Shown here piece after piece: positions 3,049-44,795 of a DNA stretch of 64,000 nt. A program made the translations under genes and the position numbers. How positions within the stretch are numbered: position 1 is the first letter of the stretch; each line of letters opens with the position of its first letter. Source of the DNA: Parcubacteria group bacterium (GTDB lineage: Bacteria > Patescibacteriota > Minisyncoccia > Phycocordibacterales > UBA2100); NCBI GenBank assembly GCA_943358385.1, contig CALRGX010000005.1, positions 2,886-66,885 on the forward strand, read 5' to 3'. Below the pieces are notes generated by a model. It was not told the origin of the DNA. It made no database searches and saw only the letters and a list, made by a program, of their open reading frames with translations.

Positions 3049-4194
3049 ATGCAAGGCGTCATTCATACGCGGAAAGTCGTTAGTAGTGTATTTTTCGTCG
3101 CCATCGCCATTGGCGGGTTTTTGGTCCCCGCATCGAGTGGTGCCCAAGAACTCTTGCCTGAAGTGGAGCACATATGGAAAGCTCAGGCCGTGAGTGTCTC
3201 GAGTGCGACGACAACATTCGAGGCATTTGGTGTGGAGTCGCAGTCCCAAATCCTCGAAGCTCGTATTCTGGAAGGCGAACGCTCGGGGGAAGTGGTACAG
3301 TTTCGCAACGACTACATCCTCCTTAAATCTGGAGACCGATTCTATCTGCGCCATAGCGTGCAGCCAGGAGGAGAAGATAGTTTTGCGGTGTTCGACCGAG
3401 ATCGACATCTGGTCTTGGGGGTGCTGGCTCTTTTATTTGTTGCGGCGGTTATATTCCTCGGAGGAATACAGGGTGTGCGTGCGCTGCTATCACTCATCGC
3501 CAGTTTCCTCTTGATTATGTACGTACTGGTGCCGTCACTCCTTGCGGCATATCCGCCCGTTTTGGTAAGTGTGGTGATTGCAGCGGGCATTTTGGCGCTC
3601 GCCATATTTCTGACACATGGCATCAATCGGGGGTCAGTCGTGGCGTTTGTAGGCACAGTCACTGCGGTGTTGTGTACTGGTGCACTGGCGACACTCGTCT
3701 CGTACTTTGCGGGATTTACGGGATTGGGCCCGGACGAGGCAACCTACCTTAATTTGGCAACGGGTGGAACGCTGGATTTAGCGGGTCTCCTTCTGGCGGG
3801 GATTATCATCGGTATGCTTGGTGTGTTGGACGATATTGCCATCACCCAGGTAGCGGTGGTGCGTGAGCTCTACCATGCGACACCGGATATGAGCAGGCAC
3901 GAAGTTTATACGCGTGCTATGCGTGTCGGGAAAGAACATGCCGGGGCATTGGTGAATACCTTGGTATTGGCGTACAGCGGTGCGGCGCTCCCGCTCATTA
4001 TGCTCTTCGCGCTCTCTGAAGAGAGTATGCTTTTTTTCATCAATAGAGAGATTTTTGCCGTGGAAATAGTACGAGCCCTGGTCGGCTCTATCGGCCTCAT
4101 GGTAGCGGTCCCCGTCACGACCGCGCTTGCCGCGTGGTTTTTGCGAGGACACGCGCATGGCGTCGGGCCCGTGCACGGCCATCACCACGGATAG
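3049..4194 (+). CDS. YibE/F-family-like integral membrane protein with His-rich C-terminus
   Basis: An N-terminal signal/TM is followed by a soluble domain and then about 6 hydrophobic helices. The architecture and the motifs LLKSGDRFYL and GVLDDIAITQ are reminiscent of the YibE/F family. The tail is HGHAHGVGPVHGHHHG. Confidence 0.45.
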   Translation: MQGVIHTRKVVSSVFFVAIAIGGFLVPASSGAQELLPEVEHIWKAQAVSVSSATTTFEAFGVESQSQILEARILEGERSGEVVQFRNDYILLKSGDRFYLRHSVQPGGEDSFAVFDRDRHLVLGVLALLFVAAVIFLGGIQGVRALLSLIASFLLIMYVLVPSLLAAYPPVLVSVVIAAGILALAIFLTHGINRGSVVAFVGTVTAVLCTGALATLVSYFAGFTGLGPDEATYLNLATGGTLDLAGLLLAGIIIGMLGVLDDIAITQVAVVRELYHATPDMSRHEVYTRAMRVGKEHAGALVNTLVLAYSGAALPLIMLFALSEESMLFFINREIFAVEIVRALVGSIGLMVAVPVTTALAAWFLRGHAHGVGPVHGHHHG

Positions 4195-7787: not shown

Positions 7788-8507
7788 ATGATTCAACATT
7801 TTTCTATAACCGGAATGCATTGTGGTGCGTGTGTTAAAAAAGTCGAAGCGGCCGTAGGTGCGCTTGCAGGGGTGCGAGTGGTGCGGGTCGACCTTGCGTC
7901 GCAATCAATAGTACTCGAACACGACGCGCCACTTGAGCGCGCTGTAGTGTCACATGCTATAGCCGCTGCCGGGCCATACGTTCTTGGCGACGCCCAGAAC
8001 ATAGTAAAGACACCACCTGCATCCGGTGGGGTTATACGCAGGGTTATGCCGCTCCTTCTCATGCTTGTGTTGGTAACCCTCTTTGCCCTCTTAAAGCAAA
8101 TATTTTTTGCATCGCCGGCCACATTCCATGGGCTAATGCAGGATTGGATGGCCGGATTCTTCTTGCTATTTGGAGTGCTGAAGGTTATCAATCTGAAGAA
8201 ATTTGCCCTCATGTATCAGGGGTATGATGTCGCGGCAAAGCGTTTCCCGTGGTGGGGTTACCTGTACCCATTTCTGGAAGTGGGTCTGGGTCTACTCTTC
8301 CTGTTTGGCGCTGCGCTCGTTTTTGCGAATGTGGCAACAGTCGCGCTGATGGGTTTGGGCATGATTGGCATCTACAAAAAAATCCACTCCGAAGGAGAGG
8401 TGCAGTGCGCGTGTCTGGGAGGATTTTTCAATGTGCCAGTCACCTGGTTTACGTTTGCTGAAAATGGATTGATGGTGGTGATGGCTGTGTGGATGCTTTT
8501 GCAATAG
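7788..8507 (+). CDS. HMA (heavy-metal-associated) domain fused to MauE/DoxX-family redox-associated membrane protein
   Basis: The N-terminus ITGMHCGACVKKVEAAV is an HMA ferredoxin-like metal-binding motif. The C-terminal 4-TM domain with LYPFLEVGLGLLFLFG and QCACLGGFF is clearly homologous to the ORF at 35873..36517. Confidence 0.6.
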   Translation: MIQHFSITGMHCGACVKKVEAAVGALAGVRVVRVDLASQSIVLEHDAPLERAVVSHAIAAAGPYVLGDAQNIVKTPPASGGVIRRVMPLLLMLVLVTLFALLKQIFFASPATFHGLMQDWMAGFFLLFGVLKVINLKKFALMYQGYDVAAKRFPWWGYLYPFLEVGLGLLFLFGAALVFANVATVALMGLGMIGIYKKIHSEGEVQCACLGGFFNVPVTWFTFAENGLMVVMAVWMLLQ

Positions 8508-32960: not shown

Positions 32961-33009
32961 GGTCGTGCCTACTATACCACTCTCCCTGGGTAGGTGTTTA
33001 CGCTGAATA

Positions 33010-33038
33010 TTGACGTGGAACGTACTTGAAAGTATAGT
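33010..33038 (+). promoter_or_regulatory. Strong sigma70-like promoter driving ssrA
   Basis: TTGACG (33010-15), a 17-bp spacer, then TATAGT (33033-38). Confidence 0.6.
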
Positions 33039-33044
33039 CCAAAA

Positions 33045-33107
33045 CGGTGTTAGGTGCGGTGTAACTAAGTGGATCGGACCCGGGGGCGGTACCCGGCGCC
33101 TCCACCA
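33045..33107 (+). ncRNA. ssrA: tmRNA acceptor (3') piece of a circularly permuted ssrA
   Basis: A T-arm-like hairpin CCGGG-ggcggta-CCCGG is followed by CGCCTCC-ACCA. This is the 3' acceptor strand, discriminator and CCA, and it lies upstream of the 5' GGGGGCG strand. Confidence 0.55.
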
Positions 33108-33149
33108 AAAACACATCGCTCTGTTCTTTACAGAAGGTGTGCTTTTGCT

Positions 33150-33340
33150 GGGGGCGAAATAGGATCGACGACCACCCAAAAGCTCCGCTGCTTCAACGCA
33201 AGCCGAAGCACCAACTCAAGTGCCAACCATCAGGACGGCGCTGTTCACGCCTAAGGGCTGAACGGGGTTCGGGGAGTACCTGGCAACAGAAACTCCCCAC
33301 TCATACCATGGGCCCGCTCAAAGAGAGCGGGCCCAACTCA
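33150..33340 (+). ncRNA. ssrA: tmRNA coding (5') piece of permuted ssrA
   Basis: It begins GGGGGCGAAATAGGATCGACG, which resembles the tmRNA 5' end GGGGcugauucuGGAUUCGACG. Its GGGGGCG is complementary to the upstream CGCCTCC. It contains a short reading frame ending TAA (a candidate tag ...ANHQDGAVHA) and a terminal hairpin GGGCCCGCTC-aaagag-AGCGGGCCC. Confidence 0.55.
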
Positions 33341-33420
33341 TATCTGAGTGAATTTGACACTAGTATTTTACGGTGGTACTATATAAAAGGTACAGTAGGA
33401 AACCAAAGGAGAACAGACGA

Positions 33421-34854: not shown

Positions 34855-35166
34855 TTGCTATGCTCCTCGTATATGGCGGAGAGCCCCAAAGAAGTGTGCC
34901 CCATCACCAAAGTAGCCGAGCTCCTCTCGGATACCTGGACGATGCTTATTATGCGAGCCCTCACTGAAGGGTCCAAGCGATTTACCGAGCTAGAGGTATG
35001 GTTGGGTGACATATCCTCACGCACGCTCACTCTGAAGCTGGCCAAGCTGCAAGAGCAAGGCTTGGTAGAAAAAACCCAAGAAGGCACCTACCAGGCCACC
35101 AAAAAAGGGAAGGGCTTGAAAATGATTGAAAAGGCAATGGTGAAGTACAGTAAGGAGTATCTGTAG
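34855..35166 (+). CDS. HxlR-family winged-helix transcriptional regulator
   Basis: CPITKVAELLSDTWTMLIMRAL...RFTELEVWLGDISSRTLTLKLAKLQEQGLV is the HxlR-type HTH. It is divergent from an FMN reductase gene. Confidence 0.65.
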   Translation: MLCSSYMAESPKEVCPITKVAELLSDTWTMLIMRALTEGSKRFTELEVWLGDISSRTLTLKLAKLQEQGLVEKTQEGTYQATKKGKGLKMIEKAMVKYSKEYL

Positions 35167-35196
35167 TTCTTGCCTGTGCACTACGGCAAAGTTGGG

Positions 35197-35202
35197 TATA
35201 AT
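35197..35202 (+). promoter_or_regulatory. -10 box (TATAAT) for tRNA-Ser
   Basis: TATAAT lies 9 nt upstream of tRNA position 1. No clean -35 is present. Confidence 0.4.
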
Positions 35203-35211
35203 CCAACCCAC

Positions 35212-35301
35212 GGAGGGTTCGCATAGTGGTCTAGTGCACGTCCCTGGAAAGGACGAGTCTGGGAAACCGGACCGAGAGTTCGAATCTCTCACCCTCCGCC
35301 A
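35212..35301 (+). tRNA. tRNA-Ser (anticodon GGA), CCA encoded
   Basis: The acceptor GGAGGGT/ACCCTCC is followed by GCCA. The anticodon loop is CTGGAAA, and the long variable arm is GTCTGGGAAACCGGAC. Confidence 0.85.
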
Positions 35302-35322
35302 ACACAATTTAGTCTCGGAGTC

Positions 35323-35357
35323 AACTCACTTGCCTGAGCAAGTGGTGCGACTCACAT
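35323..35357. repeat. Left copy of imperfect direct repeats flanking the AT-rich islet (AACTCACTTGCCT ... GCGACTCACAT), containing palindrome CACTTGC-ctga-GCAAGTG
   Basis: ACTCACTTGCCT and GCGACTCAC recur at 37653-37667 as GCGACTCACTTGCCT. ACTCACAT recurs at 37729-37736. Confidence 0.5.
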
Positions 35358-35371
35358 ACATAAATTGCAAC

Positions 35372-35402
35372 AAAAAAACACGATAATCTCGTGTATTTTT
35401 TG
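35372..35402. terminator. Bidirectional terminator (tRNA-Ser on + and the island operon on -)
   Basis: AAAAAAACACGA-taatc-TCGTGTATTTTTTT. Confidence 0.65.
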
Positions 35403-35417
35403 TTGCAAGAGTAACTC

Positions 35418-35837
35418 TCAATAAGACTTTAGCCACTCATTCATCATTTTAATTTCAACCTCTTGAGCTTTTATTATATTCTCTGCAAAAGTCCTAATTT
35501 CAGGATTTACAGTTTTGTCTTGTAGTAACAATTTGGCCATGTCTACAGCACCTTGATGATGAGGTATCATGCCAGCAATAAATTCTTTTTCTAGAGCTTT
35601 ACCTGTTTTACCTTTCATCATCCCGACCATGTCTGTCATGGTCATATCCATCATACTGTTACCAGTATTCATCATCATTGAACCATCTGGCATTTGATGC
35701 ATATTCTGCATTGTTTTCTGTGCACCAGTTAGATTGTTTATTCGCTCTTTATCTTTCTGTACGATATCTCCGAAGTGAAATACCCATGTAGAGATGAGTG
35801 CTATTGCTAATACGATTGTAGAAATTTTGTAATTCAT
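35418..35837 (-). CDS. DUF305-family protein with Met-rich segment (copper-associated four-helix-bundle family)
   Basis: Signal peptide, the Met-rich run MQNMHQMPDGSMMMNTGNSMMDMTMTDMVGMM, and the DUF305 motif GMIPHHQGAVDMA. Confidence 0.65.
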   Translation of the reverse strand: MNYKISTIVLAIALISTWVFHFGDIVQKDKERINNLTGAQKTMQNMHQMPDGSMMMNTGNSMMDMTMTDMVGMMKGKTGKALEKEFIAGMIPHHQGAVDMAKLLLQDKTVNPEIRTFAENIIKAQEVEIKMMNEWLKSY

Positions 35838-35872
35838 AAATCTGTTTATTAATTAATAATACTTTGGGGACA

Positions 35873-36517
35873 TTACATTGCCATATGCCCCATACTTAAA
35901 GTTGTGATCACCATATAGAGAGCCATAAGTGCCATAAATAGATTCTCGAAAAGAGTTACCTTTGTCATTGGTACAGAGAAAACTGTTCCTAAGCATGCAC
36001 AAGGTATCTCATCTTTGTTTTGAAGTGCTTTCCAGACCCCTATAGTACCTATAGACATAATAATAAAGGTAAACACGTCTCTGTATATTCCACCAATGAC
36101 AAAGAAGTACAGTACTCCAAGCCCTATTTCAATAAATGGATACAGAAGTGCGTATGTGCGAGACTTCTTTGCCAAGATATCATACGTCATGTAAGCGTCT
36201 GCAAAAGCACTCAAATTGGGTAGTTTAAATAATCCAAAAACAAGAAAGAAATAGGACATCATGTACATCATTCCTGTCATAAAGCTATAATCTTGTTTGA
36301 GATACATAGAGACAATAGTCAAAATTGTAATGACTCCGATCATAGCTATTAATGGTAATAGTTTTTGGAAAGTTGATTGATGTGGAAGATTCAAGACTTT
36401 TATTGATTGTTCGGTTTTGTGGTGTTCACAAAAGTAATGAGGACTACCATTTGTGTTCTCATAATAGGTGCCAGCCATACTACACTTCTCACATTTGTTG
36501 TATTTTATTGCATGCAT
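35873..36517 (-). CDS. MauE/DoxX-family redox-associated membrane protein with N-terminal zinc-ribbon-like domain
   Basis: The N-terminus CEKC...FCEHH is followed by a 4-TM domain with LYPFIEIGLGVLYFFV and IPCACLGTVFSVPMTKVTLFEN. It is a paralogue of the C-domain of 7788..8507. Confidence 0.6.
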   Translation of the reverse strand: MHAIKYNKCEKCSMAGTYYENTNGSPHYFCEHHKTEQSIKVLNLPHQSTFQKLLPLIAMIGVITILTIVSMYLKQDYSFMTGMMYMMSYFFLVFGLFKLPNLSAFADAYMTYDILAKKSRTYALLYPFIEIGLGVLYFFVIGGIYRDVFTFIIMSIGTIGVWKALQNKDEIPCACLGTVFSVPMTKVTLFENLFMALMALYMVITTLSMGHMAM

Positions 36518-36522
36518 ACAAT

Positions 36523-36888
36523 TTAATGTTGAACGCTTTCACTTCCATGATGATCTTCACCAAGTAGTGTGTTATCCATAACATAATGAGAAAACAACAT
36601 AAAAAGTATTGCTAAAATTACCACAACTGCAAGATTTCTCTTTTCTATTTTGAATCTGTCTTTCAAGAAAAATGTTACATAGGTGATAATCATTCCAAGG
36701 CCAAGAAGTATTCCAGCGTATGACGGATTATCAAGATAATGCTGTATACCACCTGACAAAAATCCAGTTGCAAACGAAAGTCCTGTGATTATAAGAAAAT
36801 AATTTAGGTTGATTTTTTGCCCATGTTCTTTTGCTTCTTTAATATTTCCTATAATAGTGAAGATTAGACCTATACCAATTAGAACCAC
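36523..36888 (-). CDS. Small integral membrane protein, His-rich C-terminus; start may lie upstream (non-ATG)
   Basis: It has 3-4 hydrophobic helices and a C-terminus EDHHGSESVQH. The in-frame hydrophobic sequence continues upstream to 36993 without an ATG. Confidence 0.45.
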   Translation of the reverse strand: MVLIGIGLIFTIIGNIKEAKEHGQKINLNYFLIITGLSFATGFLSGGIQHYLDNPSYAGILLGLGMIITYVTFFLKDRFKIEKRNLAVVVILAILFMLFSHYVMDNTLLGEDHHGSESVQH

Positions 36889-37008
36889 ATATCTAGTAAC
36901 TCCATTTTGGAGTGTTCCGATATGAACTACTGACCCTGCGATAAGGGCAACTCCTAAATATTTGCAATATAAGTAAAAAATGCATAATGTGATTTATTTA
37001 TATCCATA

Positions 37009-37281
37009 CTATTTCCTCTTTAGCTTATAGACTTTAATAATCTCCTCTTGCATTTCCTTGATTCGACTTTTATTTGTGTCTTTTGTAAGACAGTGGGCAA
37101 GGTGGCTCTGTAGCATCTCATCTTCAAGGGAAGAGATGGCACTTTTTATAGCACTTGTTTGAGTAATGATATCAATACAGTATTTATCTGCTTGAATCAT
37201 CTTTTCAACTCCCTCCAGTTGTCCCATTATGCGTTTAATGCGACTAACTATTTTTTTGTTATCTTTGTGTACTCCGTGCAT
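37009..37281 (-). CDS. csoR: CsoR/RcnR-family metal-sensing transcriptional repressor (copper-sensing CsoR-like)
   Basis: VSRIKRIMGQLEGVEKMIQADKYCIDIITQTSAIKSAISSLEDEMLQSHLAHC carries the DUF156 pattern with conserved Cys...His...Cys ligand positions. Confidence 0.75.
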   Translation of the reverse strand: MHGVHKDNKKIVSRIKRIMGQLEGVEKMIQADKYCIDIITQTSAIKSAISSLEDEMLQSHLAHCLTKDTNKSRIKEMQEEIIKVYKLKRK

Positions 37282-37283
37282 AT

Positions 37284-37367
37284 TTATTTACAGCAATTAG
37301 AACCACAATTTGAACAAGCACACTTCTCACATTTACATGTGATACAAGAGCATTTTGTATTTTTCAT
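37284..37367 (-). CDS. 27-aa Cys-rich peptide (MKNTKCSCITCKCEKCACSNCGSNCCK), candidate metallothionein/Cu-binding peptide; first gene of csoR operon
   Basis: I translated the minus strand by hand. It gives 9 Cys in 27 aa, in CxC and CC motifs. The stop TAA lies 2 nt before the csoR ATG. The ORF is below the size cutoff of the ORF track. Confidence 0.5.
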   Translation of the reverse strand: MKNTKCSCITCKCEKCACSNCGSNCCK

Positions 37368-37421
37368 AATAATAGAGATATTGTAGTGGGTTATGGTAAT
37401 GGACTAGAATATCTTGTATAT

Positions 37422-37450
37422 ATTATATACCCTATGGGGGTATATTGCAA
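37422..37450 (-). promoter_or_regulatory. Promoter of the Cys-peptide/csoR operon with CsoR-like operator in the spacer
   Basis: On the minus strand the promoter reads TTGCAA - 17 bp - TATAAT. The spacer contains the GC-rich pseudo-palindrome ATACCCTATGGGGGTAT (37427-37443), which resembles known CsoR operators (TACCC...GGGGGTA type). Confidence 0.55.
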
Positions 37451-37652
37451 CTAGTCTATAAGCGTTAATTCTTTATCTTTATACACGATCTTGCTCCGCA
37501 GATTTGCTAATAGCTCTCGCTTCTCTGTGACCGCACCCTCTTTCAGAATGTATTTTGCATAATTTCGTATATCAGTATCAGGTGCTTATTTCTCTAGGTG
37601 TCTCATTTGTCTCATTTTCATCTAAAACCCTTTGTTTTATTACTGGGAGATA

Positions 37653-37667
37653 GCGACTCACTTGCCT
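37653..37667. repeat. Right copy of direct repeat (GCGACTCACTTGCCT) bounding the AT-rich islet
   Basis: It matches the left-flank segments at 35323-35335 and 35347-35355. Confidence 0.45.
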
Positions 37668-37827
37668 CAATGAGACACTCTAAAAAGTGCTATAATACAC
37701 TTACAAGGCCTCAAGTCGTGGGTACTTAACTCACATGGCCCGCAAAAATAAAGAGACAGAAGCGAAAGCTTCTGGCGATTATATTTTTGTAGGAAGGGTG
37801 AAAGATTCGAAGGCCGGAGGCGGGGGT

Positions 37828-37960
37828 CCCCAAAAGCTTTTGGGGCGCCGAGGCAGGGTCGTGGAATTTTCAAGTGCGACGGCACTTGAAAATATCCCTG
37901 ACCGAATCCCGGTCAAAAGTCTGCATCTACTGATACAGCTTTCGACCCTGCCTCGCGCCG
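37828..37960 (+). other. Highly structured ~130-nt element (candidate ncRNA or MITE-like repeat)
   Basis: A perfect 18-bp palindrome CCCCAAAAGCTTTTGGGG lies at 37828-37845. A 13-bp long-range stem pairs CGAGGCAGGGTCG (37849-61) with CGACCCTGCCTCG (37943-55). Inside it are the hairpins TTTTCAAGTGC-gacg-GCACTTGAAAA and GACCG-aatcc-CGGTC. Confidence 0.4.
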
Positions 37961-38381
37961 ACGCGCTCCGGCCTTGCGAAGCTGCGCACGGCTCGCTTCT
38001 CACCCCTCCGCTTTGTTCAAGAGAAAGCTTCAAGATAAAGAGAGAAGTTCGCCGCCTTCGCATGTATACTTTCAGTATGTGGATTCACCAGCGCTCGCTG
38101 CTCATCGGTGCTGCCTTCGCACTTCCATTTTTCGCTGCAAATGTGCTGGTAGCTTTGCAGGCAAAACTATTCCTTTGGCTCCTGCGCCCCCTGGGGCATA
38201 CCACGCTGGATGAAGAAATCGCCCAGCCCCCAGCCGATAAGGGCAATAAAAGCACACAGAACACCCCACGAAAGTGACATGGGGGAAGTGTAGCATCGCT
38301 GCCACAGACAGCTCGGCAGTATGTACATTGCGTTCACGTGTGTGCTAATGTAATTCGGGTTTAGCTACAGGAGAGTGCTAC

Positions 38382-44140: not shown

Positions 44141-44487
44141 GGGCTGCATCGGGTAGCTGCTATCAATGGCAACATCGATAGAGGAAAGTCCGGGCTCGGG
44201 CCGATAGAAATATCGCGCAGCAGGGTAATAGGTAACGCCTATCCATCGTAAGGTGAGAGGTGCGAGCAGAAACGCCCGCGGCGAAAGCCAGAGGCCCCGC
44301 AAGGGTGACGTCTGTGGAAACACAGATATGAAACGGCTAAATCCTTACCTCCGTGCAAGGTCGTGCCTGTCGCAAGACAGGAGTGCCGCTTGAGGGTGTT
44401 GGCGACAACACTCCCAGATGAATAGTTACACAGTCCTTCGCCTGAAAAGGCTCGGGATGGACAGAACCCGGCTTACAGGTGCAGCGC
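44141..44487 (+). ncRNA. rnpB: RNase P RNA, bacterial type A
   Basis: GGAAAGTCCGGGCTC is the P4 5' strand, GGTAACGCC is present, ACAGAACCCGGCTTA is the P4 3' strand, the P3 hairpin is TATCAATG-gcaa-CATCGATA, and P1 pairs GCTGCATC with GGTGCAGC. Confidence 0.85.
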
Positions 44488-44795
44488 AGTGAGTGAAAAG
44501 AGGCCCCGAATAGGGGTCTCTTTTCCGAATAAGCAATTCTGTATGCTCCGCATACAGATGCAGCGCAGCGAATAAAGAAGAGACCCGAACAGGGTCTTTT
44601 CTTTTGAGCAAGCAAAATCTGAAAGGTTTCCTTATAGGTGCAGCGAAATGAGCGAAGAAAAACCCCGAATAGGGGTTTTTCTTCCGAATGAGCAATCCTG
44701 TATGCTTTGCATATAGGTGCAGCGAACGAGTCAAAAGAGAACGCGAAAGCGTTCTCTTTTGCGAGAGAGCCAGAACTGTATCGACCCGTGCCCGC
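44477..44795 (+). repeat. Four tandem ~80-bp units, each = copy of rnpB P1-3' strand (GGTGCAGCG / GATGCAGCG) + hairpin with GAANA pentaloop + U-tract (+ second hairpin in units 1 and 3)
   Basis: Units start at 44477, 44556, 44636 and 44716. The stems are GGCCCC/GGGGTC, AGACCC/GGGTCT, AAACCCC/GGGGTTT and AGAACGC/GCGTTCT, so they covary. Units 1 and 3 also carry TGTATGC-nnn-GCATACA. Confidence 0.6.

What the first reader, a model, noticed from the sequence alone, without database searches (positions are those of the whole stretch)
37284..37367. Unannotated 27-aa peptide with 9 cysteines directly upstream of csoR (candidate bacterial metallothionein)
Hand translation of the minus strand from ATG 37367 gives MKNTKCSCITCKCEKCACSNCGSNCCK, then TAA, with 2 nt before the csoR ATG. 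The ORF track has a >=60 aa cutoff and misses it. CxC, CC and CxxC spacing at this density is typical of Cu(I)-thiolate cluster peptides such as MymT-type copper metallothioneins. Its position as the first cistron of a CsoR-regulated operon fits a copper-buffering role. A Cys-rich RiPP precursor is an alternative, but no modifying enzymes are nearby.
Basis: seen in the sequence. Interest (0 to 1): 0.7.

Follow-up and report, generated by a model that had tools for sequence, protein, structure and literature searches.

The report
Copper-regulated 27-residue cysteine-rich peptide gene
A real, conserved but never-annotated 27-amino-acid gene with nine cysteines sits first in a copper-sensor (CsoR) operon on a small mobile island of uncultivated CPR bacteria, and it most likely makes a miniature copper-binding metallothionein of a new sequence family.

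Summary
ATG 37367 to TAA 37284 (minus strand) encodes MKNTKCSCITCKCEKCACSNCGSNCCK, 2 nt before csoR. It is the most Cys-rich of 1,299 ORFs in the window (chance about 1e-5).

It is a real gene. I found 17 distinct versions (25, 27 and 56 aa), all directly upstream of close CsoR relatives in Patescibacteria/CPR assemblies. In 10 distinct DNA versions of the 27-codon form, Cys codons never change at positions 1 and 2 (0 of 18 sites) and change only T/C at position 3. Other codons vary freely (Fisher p=5e-6). dN/dS is 0.05-0.2 for most pairs. One variant swaps a Cys for His.

A sigma-70-like promoter carries a near-consensus type-2 CsoR operator and sits about 48 nt upstream. The CsoR has the Cu(I) x-C-H-C ligand set. 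The peptide heads three operon types (MauE-DUF305, CopA ATPase, thioredoxin-Msr), so it travels with csoR. About 60% of sister operons lack it.

No RiPP enzymes are nearby. There was no match in Pfam, NCBIfam, PDB or 5.8 billion predicted proteins.

Best reading: a copper-induced, metallothionein-like Cu(I)-thiolate buffer, analogous but not homologous to MymT. Metal binding and translation are untested.

The parts
37284..37367 (-). 27-codon Cys-rich ORF (MKNTKCSCITCKCEKCACSNCGSNCCK) plus TAA stop; Cys spacing CxCxxCxCxxCxCxxCxxxCC
   Evidence: Translation. Conserved in 17 distinct versions upstream of csoR. Codon-position selection test.
37422..37450 (-). Sigma-70-like promoter, TTGCAA (37450-37445), 17 nt spacer, TATAAT (37427-37422)
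   Evidence: Best-scoring promoter-like site in 35000-38000, 10 of 12 matches. The same architecture is conserved in all close loci.
37425..37445 (-). CsoR operator ATATACCCCCATAGGGTATAT (TAC-N9-GTA core at 37428-37442), overlapping the -35 and -10 hexamers
   Evidence: The only exact TACCC-N5-GGGTA site in the 64-kb window. Matches the experimentally defined type-2 consensus ATATACCCCTNAGGGGTATAT (PMC3902906). Present in front of nearly all csoR clade members.
37368..37415 (-). Inferred 5' leader of about 48 nt, A/U-rich, with no Shine-Dalgarno sequence and a weak 5' hairpin
   Evidence: Position inferred from the -10 box. Fold z = -2.3, with the AUG region unpaired. The other cassette genes also lack an SD, except the membrane-protein gene.
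37009..37281 (-). csoR: 90-aa Cu(I)-sensing CsoR-family repressor (Y34, C35, H60, C64)
   Evidence: PF02583 E=3e-25. Best PDB matches are CsoR 4ADZ and 4M1P, with the YCID and HxxxC motifs aligned. W-X-Y-Z rule from PMC11672702. Ligands invariant in 27 of 27 clade members.
36523..37005 (-). Membrane protein gene of unknown family with a His-rich C-terminus. Here it is broken by a 1-nt deletion in an A-run; it is intact at 161 aa in other copies.
   Evidence: The intact form has no Pfam hit.
35873..36517 (-). MauE/DoxX-like membrane protein with an N-terminal Cys/His-rich segment
   Evidence: PF07291 E=3.5e-14.
35418..35837 (-). DUF305/CopM-like Met/His-rich protein with an N-terminal hydrophobic anchor
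   Evidence: PF03713 E=3e-20. NCBIfam CopM E=7e-21, below the curated cut-off.
35378..35394 (-). Intrinsic-terminator-like hairpin followed by a T-run at the end of the operon
37451..37566 (-). C-terminal remnant of a large serine recombinase gene (...NYAKYILKEGAVTEKRELLANLRSKIVYKDKELTLID*)
   Evidence: Read. 82% identical to the matching stretch of L026. A 273-aa Recombinase + Zn_ribbon_recom gene ends at this position in L327, whose upstream sequence matches the window's remnant; full-length serine recombinases flank the cassette in L324, L330 and L004.
35212..35301 (+). tRNA-Ser(GGA) bordering the AT-rich islet; a likely integration landmark
   Evidence: GC drops from about 0.49 to 0.33-0.36 between 35300 and 37700.
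35324..35335 (+). 12-nt direct repeat ACTCACTTGCCT at the left islet border; possible att remnant
   Evidence: Only suggestive, since about 0.25 such repeats are expected by chance.
37656..37667 (+). Second copy of the 12-nt direct repeat, at the right islet border

Best explanation
The ORF is a genuine protein-coding micro-gene and the first cistron of a CsoR-autoregulated, copper-inducible operon. The operon is carried on a mobile cassette of about 2.3 kb. When cytoplasmic Cu(I) is low, CsoR tetramers sit on the palindrome between the -35 and -10 boxes and block transcription. When Cu(I) rises, it binds C35/H60/C64 of CsoR, the repressor leaves, and the peptide is made together with CsoR and the downstream envelope proteins. 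In the window, csoR starts 2 nt after the peptide's stop codon and has no ribosome-binding site of its own, so it is probably translated by ribosomes that have just finished the peptide. The peptide has 9 thiolates in 27 residues, with CxC, CxxC and CC spacing, no aromatic residues and no signal peptide. It most likely folds around a small Cu(I)-thiolate cluster (a few Cu(I) per chain) and acts as a metallothionein-like cytoplasmic copper buffer. By lowering free Cu(I), it would also feed back on CsoR. What is shown: the ORF, its conservation, selection on Cys, its position behind a CsoR operator, the Cu(I) ligand set of CsoR, and the mobility of the cassette. What is inferred: translation, Cu(I) binding, cluster stoichiometry, buffering and translational coupling.
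For: Sequence and rarity:
-.

Conservation:
- 9 of 25 genome loci whose CsoR is at least 70% identical carry the ORF.
- 9 of 9 loci with the identical CsoR carry it.
- 4 of 9 further CsoR clusters sampled carry it.
- This gives 17 distinct peptides in 25-, 27- and 56-aa classes, all with 0 aromatic residues.

Selection:
- Cys codons are variable at 0 of 18 first and second positions, against 21 of 34 for the other codons (Fisher p=5e-6).
- 7 of 9 Cys codons switch between TGT and TGC.
- dN/dS is 0.05-0.2 for most pairs.
- One natural variant replaces a Cys with His, another metal ligand, through a two-base change.

Regulation:
- The promoter and a near-consensus type-2 CsoR operator lie upstream.
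- In peptide-less sister operons the same module abuts csoR directly, so the peptide cistron is inserted between operator and csoR.
- CsoR has the x-C-H-C motif.

Linkage to copper rather than to one pathway:
- The peptide heads csoR-MauE-DUF305, csoR-CopA (HMA plus P-type ATPase) and csoR-thioredoxin-MsrAB operons.

Precedent:
- MymT is a small, originally unannotated Cys-rich Cu(I)-binding protein controlled by the CsoR paralogue RicR.
- A 25-residue, 7-Cys fungal Cu-metallothionein has a solved structure, PDB 1T2Y.
Against: - There is no direct evidence of translation. No Shine-Dalgarno sequence precedes the ATG, and no proteomic or ribosome-profiling data were available.
- There are no metal-binding data. 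Copper specificity is inferred only from the regulator.
- The peptide is dispensable. About 60% of closely related csoR operons lack it, and its distribution on the CsoR tree is patchy.
- No homology to any known metallothionein could be shown.
- Every family member was retrieved through csoR, so exclusive linkage to csoR is not established. The viral scan found no members.
Confidence: 0.68

Rival explanations
1. Regulatory upstream ORF. The peptide's job is in cis. Translating the Cys-rich ORF, possibly with the nascent chain sensing Cu(I), sets how many ribosomes reinitiate on the SD-less csoR or how much transcript continues into csoR. The released peptide has no role of its own.
For: - csoR has no SD and starts 0-3 nt after the peptide's stop in the window and many other loci.
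- In peptide-less loci csoR is near-leaderless, so adding a cistron changes how csoR is translated.
- Stable hairpins fill the long spacers in L004/L342 and L021.
- There is a precedent for a copper-sensing uORF: CruR/DUF2946, with a CXXC motif and a RAPP arrest motif (PMC9426467).
Against: - Spacer length ranges from 0 to 96 nt, with and without structure, so no single coupling or attenuation geometry is conserved.
- All nine Cys are under selection, not just one sensing motif, and a 56-aa, 15-Cys version exists. That fits a metal-cluster product better than a leader peptide.
- There is no DUF2946 hit and no RAPP-type arrest motif.
- Sister operons work without the peptide.
Confidence: 0.12
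2. Cu(I) chaperone or transfer peptide rather than a storage buffer. It binds one or two Cu(I) ions and hands them to CsoR, to the CopA-type pump or to the MauE/DUF305 envelope proteins.
For: It is always co-transcribed with CsoR, and in different loci with a P1B ATPase or with DUF305/CopM-like proteins. CxxC is the classical chaperone motif (PMC7558416).
Against: Nine invariant Cys are far more than a chaperone site needs. There is no ferredoxin-like HMA fold, and the CopA in L010 carries its own HMA domain. The downstream partners differ between operon types.
Confidence: 0.1
3. A thiol-rich peptide for another stress, such as Zn/Cd binding or a sacrificial redox or persulfide buffer, that is merely co-regulated with copper genes.
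For: The long form heads an operon with thioredoxin and methionine sulfoxide reductases. CsoR-family members also sense persulfides (PMC11672702).
Against: The regulator has His at the Y position (x-C-H-C), not the x-C-N-C or x-C-x-C motif of persulfide sensors. The operator is the Cu-CsoR type. The other operon partners are copper proteins: CopA, and DUF305/CopM.
Confidence: 0.05
4. RiPP precursor, or an exported copper-binding natural product (chalkophore-like), matured by the MauE-like protein or by enzymes encoded elsewhere.
For: It is a very short Cys-rich peptide, and a MauE/DoxX-type redox membrane protein is encoded in the same operon in many loci.
Against: - No radical-SAM, YcaO, lanthipeptide or other maturase is conserved next to it. 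The single radical-SAM gene, in L330, lies outside the cassette beyond the recombinase and is absent from the other contexts.
- The peptide also occurs in operons without MauE (L010, L011, L333-L336).
- It has no leader/core architecture and no signal peptide.
Confidence: 0.03
5. Not a gene: a chance ORF, or a conserved RNA or DNA element read as codons.
For: No SD, and it is below gene-caller length limits.
Against: The chance expectation is 1.5e-5. Start, stop and frame are preserved in 17 versions. Variation concentrates at third positions in Cys codons and is amino-acid-specific.
Confidence: 0.02

Closest known systems
MymT, the mycobacterial copper metallothionein of the RicR regulon
   Same: A small Cys-rich cytoplasmic protein that genome annotation missed. 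It is induced by copper through a CsoR-family repressor (RicR) that binds a palindromic promoter motif, and it is proposed to hold several Cu(I) ions in a thiolate core (PMC7558416; PMC3944814; PMC11672702). NCBIfam's best match for the window's CsoR is RicR, although below the curated cut-off.
   Different: MymT is 4.9 kDa, about twice the size. It is a separate transcription unit rather than the first cistron of the repressor's own operon, and it is restricted to pathogenic mycobacteria. No sequence relationship was detected by any profile library.
Neurospora crassa copper metallothionein (PDB 1T2Y; 25 residues, 7 Cys)
   Same: Almost the same size, with no aromatic residues and CxC-rich spacing. 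The C-terminal stretch CSCSNCGS resembles CACSNCGS in the window peptide.
   Different: It is eukaryotic, has 7 rather than 9 Cys, and has different overall spacing. Alignment scores are only marginally above composition-preserving shuffles (p about 0.01-0.15 across family members). This is resemblance or convergence, not demonstrated homology.
SmtA/BmtA bacterial metallothioneins (Pfam Metallothio_Pro)
   Same: Bacterial, small, metal-cluster-forming and metal-induced (PMC7558416).
   Different: SmtA/BmtA proteins are built around a zinc-finger fold and SmtA's structure was solved as the Zn form; from general knowledge they also use His ligands, are about 55 aa, and SmtA is regulated by SmtB. 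The peptide gave no Pfam hit.
CruR (DUF2946) copper-responsive upstream ORF of Bordetella
   Same: It is the first gene of a copper-homeostasis operon, Cys-dependent, and influences the downstream genes (PMC9426467).
   Different: CruR acts through a nascent-chain CXXC motif, a C-terminal RAPP arrest motif and Rho-dependent termination, and it down-regulates an uptake operon. The peptide here has no DUF2946 hit, no RAPP motif and nine selected Cys, and it sits in a derepressed detoxification operon.
Csp3 copper storage proteins and CopZ chaperones
   Same: Cytoplasmic Cu(I) thiolate binders, sometimes under copper-sensor control.
   Different: Csp proteins are pre-folded four-helix bundles that form tetramers, and CopZ has a single Cu site with a linear CxxC motif. 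A 27-residue peptide can be neither.

Membership tests
Metallothionein (operational class) | Low molecular mass | tested here: met
   25-56 residues; 27 in the window.
Metallothionein (operational class) | High Cys content in CxC, CxxC and CC motifs | tested here: met
   27-33% Cys. The spacing CxCxxCxCxxCxCxxCxxxCC is invariant in the 27-aa class except for one Cys-to-His variant.
Metallothionein (operational class) | Few or no aromatic residues | tested here: met
   0 Phe/Trp/Tyr in all 17 versions; His only in the L329 variant.
Metallothionein (operational class) | Forms metal-thiolate clusters binding several metal ions | not testable with these tools
   Needs Cu(I) titration, ESI-MS and spectroscopy of the peptide.
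Metallothionein (operational class) | Metal-inducible expression | tested here: inconclusive
   A near-consensus CsoR operator lies within the promoter, and the CsoR has Cu(I) ligands. Induction itself was not measured.
MymT family | Sequence homology to MymT | tested here: inconclusive
   No hit in NCBIfam or Pfam at E up to 10, but I could not confirm that those libraries hold a MymT model. The MymT paper and sequence were not held.
MymT family | Control by a CsoR/RicR-type repressor through a palindromic promoter motif | tested here: met
   (sequence level only).
SmtA/BmtA (Metallothio_Pro) | Match to the family profile with its zinc-finger fold (from general knowledge, also conserved His ligands) | tested here: not met
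   No Pfam hit. The peptide has no His and is half the length.
Fungal Cu-metallothionein (N. crassa type, 1T2Y) | Significant sequence similarity and shared Cys spacing | tested here: inconclusive
   phmmer finds nothing. The local alignment score of 57 compares with a shuffle mean of 40 (sd 6), giving p about 0.01-0.15 across members. The spacing differs.
CruR / DUF2946 copper-sensing uORF | DUF2946 domain and a C-terminal RAPP arrest motif | tested here: not met
   No Pfam hit, and the C-terminus is CCK.
RiPP precursor | Conserved adjacent maturase (radical SAM, YcaO, LanM and the like) and a leader/core layout | tested here: not met
   Neighbour annotation in more than 12 contexts shows none conserved.
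Cu(I)-sensing CsoR (the neighbouring gene) | PF02583 fold, x-C-H-C ligand motif, and a G-tract TAC-N9-GTA operator | tested here: met

The most novel reading that the evidence does not exclude
The peptide may be a mobile, plug-in copper buffer for genome-reduced CPR bacteria. In this reading it is a gene-encoded substitute for low-molecular-weight thiols. It may also work in two ways at once: as the smallest known bacterial Cu(I)-cluster metallothionein in trans, and as a translational coupler that lets the otherwise leaderless csoR be made in proportion to it. Together these would form a self-limiting sensor-buffer module that serine-recombinase cassettes spread between hosts of 35-52% GC. 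That CPR bacteria lack glutathione-type thiols is my assumption and was not tested here.
Probability: 0.2. Interest if true: 0.8.

Novelty: new variant of a known kind. Interest (0 to 1): 0.62.

Why it matters
The reviews read here describe only two bacterial metallothionein families, SmtA/BmtA and MymT. This would add another, unrelated in sequence, about half the size of MymT and as small as the smallest fungal copper metallothionein. It would also be the first in the uncultivated Patescibacteria/CPR, whose metal physiology I believe is essentially unknown.

The case also exposes a blind spot. Neither the 27-aa form nor the 56-aa form exists in a collection of 5.8 billion predicted proteins, even though the identical cassette is listed in 97 blocks of the contig index across many public assemblies. 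Metal-sensor operons may therefore hide more micro-genes of this kind.

A 27-residue peptide with a fixed 9-Cys scaffold is easy to synthesise, so the hypothesis can be tested directly. The peptide could also serve as a minimal model of Cu(I)-thiolate clusters or as a part for biosensing and bioremediation.

Tried and rejected
1. Direct protein searches with the 27-aa peptide. It is too short for the search for homologous proteins. A profile of nine members found nothing among 5.8 billion proteins, and neither did the 56-aa form.
2. Pfam and NCBIfam scans of the short and long forms gave no hits, even at E=10. PDB phmmer also found none.
3. tblastn of the peptide against plasmids found no match.
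4. A generic 7-Cys DNA pattern on viral contigs saturated on giant-virus and simple repeats.
5. My single metagenome scan used an anchored Cys pattern that did not exclude (TGY)n microsatellites. Only L250 (phage tail/baseplate context) and L293 looked like real Cys-rich micro-ORFs, and neither is near csoR. The question of csoR-independent copies therefore stays open.
6. A repeat-proof pattern (CxCxxCKCxKCxC) on viral contigs found 15 loci: no family member, no CsoR, no operator.
7. Homology to the N. crassa Cu-MT was considered because of the shared C(A/S)CSNCGS stretch. I rejected it as evidence because the scores are only marginally above shuffles.
8. N-terminally extended CsoR database entries were checked for fused peptides. 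The extensions are just the operator read in frame, so these are peptide-less loci.
9. I tried to name the host through cluster membership of flanking proteins, but no names are on record.
10. The MymT primary paper is not held, so I used reviews instead.

Full report
**Observation**

The minus strand from ATG 37367 to TAA 37286-37284 reads MKNTKCSCITCKCEKCACSNCGSNCCK*. Two bases later, ATG 37281 opens a 90-aa gene that matches Pfam PF02583, the CsoR/RcnR family, at E=3e-25. The ORF has the highest cysteine fraction (33%) of all 1,299 ORFs of at least 15 aa in the window. With the local base composition, the chance of at least 9 TGY codons in 26 codons is 1.2e-8, or about 1.5e-5 over the whole window.

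**Setting in the window**

The ORF lies in an AT-rich islet of about 2.3-2.4 kb. GC is 0.33-0.36 between roughly 35,300 and 37,700, against about 0.5 in the flanks. A tRNA-Ser(GGA) at 35212-35301 borders one side. The C-terminal remnant of a large serine recombinase gene, at about 37566-37451, borders the other.

The minus strand carries one operon:
- the peptide
- csoR (37281-37009)
- a membrane protein of no known family (37005-36523), broken here by a 1-nt deletion
- a MauE/DoxX-like membrane protein (36517-35873, PF07291)
- a DUF305/CopM-like protein (35837-35418, PF03713)
- a terminator-like hairpin (35394-35378)

The best promoter-like site in the region is TTGCAA-17-TATAAT at 37450-37422. 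Between and overlapping the two hexamers lies ATATACCCCCATAGGGTATAT. This is the only exact TACCC-N5-GGGTA site in the 64 kb. It matches the experimentally defined type-2 CsoR operator consensus ATATACCCCTNAGGGGTATAT with its essential TAC-N9-GTA repeat (PMC3902906).

**The regulator**

The best solved relatives of the window's CsoR are the Cu(I) sensors of Streptomyces lividans (4ADZ) and Geobacillus (4M1P). The YCID and HxxxC segments align with them. The protein has C35, H60 and C64. That is the x-C-H-C 'W-X-Y-Z' motif that distinguishes Cu(I) sensors from RcnR (H-C-H-H), FrmR (P-C-H-x) and the persulfide sensor CstR (x-C-N-C) (PMC11672702). Y34, C35, H60 and C64 are invariant in all 27 clade members I aligned.

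**Is the small ORF a gene?**

Because the peptide is too short for the protein tools, I collected loci through the adjacent CsoR.
- A scan of one genome per species returned 79 loci, almost all from Patescibacteria/CPR assemblies.
- Among the 25 loci whose CsoR is at least 70% identical, 9 carry an ORF of the same design directly upstream of csoR. None of the 54 more distant loci does.
- The identical CsoR protein is listed in 97 blocks of the contig index. All nine loci fetched carry the ORF, with only I9V, A17T or N24S changes, and no gene is called there.
- Sampling nine more CsoR clusters added four positives.

In total there are 17 distinct peptides in three length classes:
- 27 aa, 9 Cys, spacing CxCxxCxCxxCxCxxCxxxCC
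- 25 aa, 8 Cys
- 56 aa, 15 Cys, with the same N-terminal CSCxxCKCExC core followed by three xxxxCxNCDC-like modules

None contains an aromatic residue.

**Selection**

I compared ten distinct nucleotide versions of the 27-codon form.
- The nine Cys codons show no change at first or second positions (0 of 18 sites). Seven of the nine switch between TGT and TGC.
- The 17 other codons vary at 21 of 34 first and second positions (Fisher p=5e-6).
- Pairwise dN/dS is 0.05-0.2 for most pairs, with synonymous sites near saturation.
- One natural variant (L329) replaces the first Cys of the terminal CC pair with His through a two-base change. That swaps one metal ligand for another.

This pattern is what a translated, metal-ligand-constrained peptide predicts. 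It is not what an RNA element or a neutral ORF predicts.

**Operon logic**

All close loci share the promoter-operator module.
- In peptide-less loci, the -10 box ends about 9 nt before the csoR ATG, so csoR is near-leaderless.
- In peptide-bearing loci, the same module sits about 45-95 nt upstream of the peptide's ATG. The peptide cistron is inserted between operator and csoR.
- The spacer between the peptide's stop and the csoR ATG is 0-3 nt in the window and many loci, but 11, 35-36, 70 or 96 nt in others. The long spacers fold into stable hairpins, with z = -4.5 and -5.9.
- None of the cassette genes except the membrane-protein gene has a recognisable Shine-Dalgarno sequence. The missing SD before the peptide is therefore typical of this element and is not evidence against translation.

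The peptide heads three different operon types:
- csoR-(membrane protein)-MauE-DUF305
- csoR plus a CopA-type P1B ATPase with an HMA domain (L010, L011)
- csoR-thioredoxin-MsrA/B (L333-L336)

The peptide therefore travels with the copper sensor and its promoter, not with MauE or any candidate maturase. On a neighbour-joining tree of CsoR the peptide is patchy and includes the deepest branch. That fits an old accessory gene lost repeatedly.

**Mobility**

Cassettes with the identical CsoR sit in at least four unrelated genomic contexts, with flank GC from 0.35 to 0.52. Full-length large serine recombinases (Resolvase + Recombinase + Zn_ribbon_recom) lie next to the cassette in L324, L330/L331 and L004. 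The window matches L026 and L324 only across the cassette, while L321 is 99.96% identical over 10.3 kb and so comes from the same organism. I could not name the window's host.

**Most likely mechanism**

CsoR represses the promoter until Cu(I) fills its C35/H60/C64 sites. Derepression then produces the peptide, more CsoR, and the envelope or efflux partners. With nine thiolates in 27 residues, no aromatic residues and no export signal, the peptide has every sequence-level hallmark of a copper metallothionein. I expect it to wrap a small Cu(I)-thiolate cluster and to buffer cytoplasmic Cu(I). That in turn would help CsoR re-repress the operon.

The 0-3 nt stop-start spacing suggests that csoR is translated by termination-reinitiation in those loci. 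Hairpin-containing spacers in other loci may allow more peptide than repressor to be made.

All steps after 'the operator and ligand motifs are present' are inference. I put 0.68 on this reading as a whole, and about 0.9 on the narrower claim that this is a translated, selected, CsoR-controlled Cys-peptide gene.

**Rivals**

- **Purely cis-acting regulatory uORF**, on the model of the copper-sensing CruR uORF (PMC9426467). This is the most serious rival. It is weakened by the variable spacer geometry, by selection on all nine Cys, by the 56-aa form, and by the absence of DUF2946 or RAPP features.
- **Chaperone role.** Possible, but nine invariant Cys exceed what a chaperone needs.
- **Zn/Cd or redox buffer.** This is disfavoured by the Cu-type regulator and operator.
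- **RiPP precursor.** No maturase is conserved in more than a dozen contexts, and the peptide occurs without MauE.
- **Chance.** Excluded.

**Comparison with known systems**

In function and regulation the closest system is MymT of Mycobacterium tuberculosis. MymT is a 4.9-kDa Cys-rich Cu(I) binder encoded by an originally unannotated ORF and repressed by the CsoR paralogue RicR through a palindromic promoter motif. The present peptide is about half that size and is co-transcribed with the repressor itself. It is mobile and occurs in CPR bacteria. No homology to MymT, SmtA/BmtA or any Pfam or NCBIfam family was detected.

In size and composition it resembles the 25-residue N. crassa copper metallothionein, whose sequence I verified against PDB 1T2Y. 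The shared C(A/S)CSNCGS stretch scores only marginally above composition-matched shuffles. I treat that as convergence.

**Limits**

- Translation and metal binding are untested.
- All members were found by anchoring on csoR. My one metagenome pattern scan was wasted on (TGY)n repeats, and the viral collection held no members. Whether the family also occurs away from csoR is therefore unknown.
- The literature library held no report of a metallothionein in CPR bacteria or of this arrangement. The library is incomplete, so prior description cannot be fully excluded.

**Verdict**

This is a real, conserved and unannotated micro-gene. It is best read as a new sequence family of copper-regulated, metallothionein-like peptides, which makes it a new variant of a known kind. 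It is cheap to test and of solid interest to specialists in metal homeostasis and small proteins (interest 0.62).

Noticed in passing
window 36523-37005 (-): The membrane-protein gene after csoR is split by a 1-nt deletion in an A-run (GCAAATATTTAGG against GCAAAATATTTAGG). It is intact at 161 aa, with a His-rich C-terminus and no Pfam family, in L320 and L322-L326. L321, from the same organism as the window, shares the break.
   Followed up: partly
window 35324-35335 and 37656-37667: An exact 12-nt direct repeat, ACTCACTTGCCT, sits at both GC-shift borders of the islet, just past tRNA-Ser(GGA) at 35212-35301. These could be att-site remnants, but about 0.25 such repeats are expected by chance in this stretch.
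   Followed up: partly
window 33006-33345 (+) and 44141-44491 (+): A permuted (two-piece, alpha-type) tmRNA gene with tag peptide ANHQDGAVHA, and a type-A RNase P RNA. They may help identify the unnamed host.
   Followed up: no
L333-L336, about 3330-3500 (+): A 56-aa, 15-Cys long form of the peptide (MTDQMTSQNCSCTDCKCENCTCDKASCTNCDCQDGACKNCDCDNSTCANCDGSCGK). Its stop codon abuts the csoR ATG (TAAATG). The operon continues with thioredoxin and MsrA/MsrB, on contigs up to 467 kb. It is not called as a gene and is absent from the protein database despite its length.
   Followed up: partly
L329, 87 nt upstream of csoR: The variant MNNTECSCATCKCKKCTCTNCGANHCK has His in place of the first Cys of the terminal CC pair (TGC to CAC). 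This is a ligand-for-ligand substitution.
   Followed up: partly
L004/L342 and L021, peptide-csoR spacers: The 96-nt and 70-nt spacers fold into stable stem-loops (-27.6 and -18.9 kcal/mol; z = -4.5 and -5.9). They may be partial terminators or stabilisers that uncouple peptide and CsoR levels. Short spacers have no structure.
   Followed up: partly
L250 about 8019-8100 (phage tail/baseplate context); L293; L352 (giant-virus MAG): Other Cys-rich micro-ORFs unrelated to csoR. L250 has MSNKKECCCSDCDCIDCDCSDCNCCS, with a strong SD, between phage structural genes. L293 has MNKCECEVCDCENCDCECECCK. L352 has a 33-aa MTCCKSCKCKDCKCNKCDCKCNKCDCKNCCKSC. Their function is unknown.
   Followed up: no
L002-L024 (peptide-less loci), csoR upstream regions: In operons without the peptide, the -10 box ends about 9 nt before the csoR ATG, which implies near-leaderless csoR mRNAs in this clade. 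Gene callers often extend csoR through the operator, giving spurious ...IYPxGVY... N-termini (P0053, P0066, P0068 and others).
   Followed up: partly
L342 4105-4334 (-): A multicopper oxidase gene lies just downstream of one peptide-bearing cassette, which suggests larger copper-resistance neighbourhoods in some hosts.
   Followed up: no
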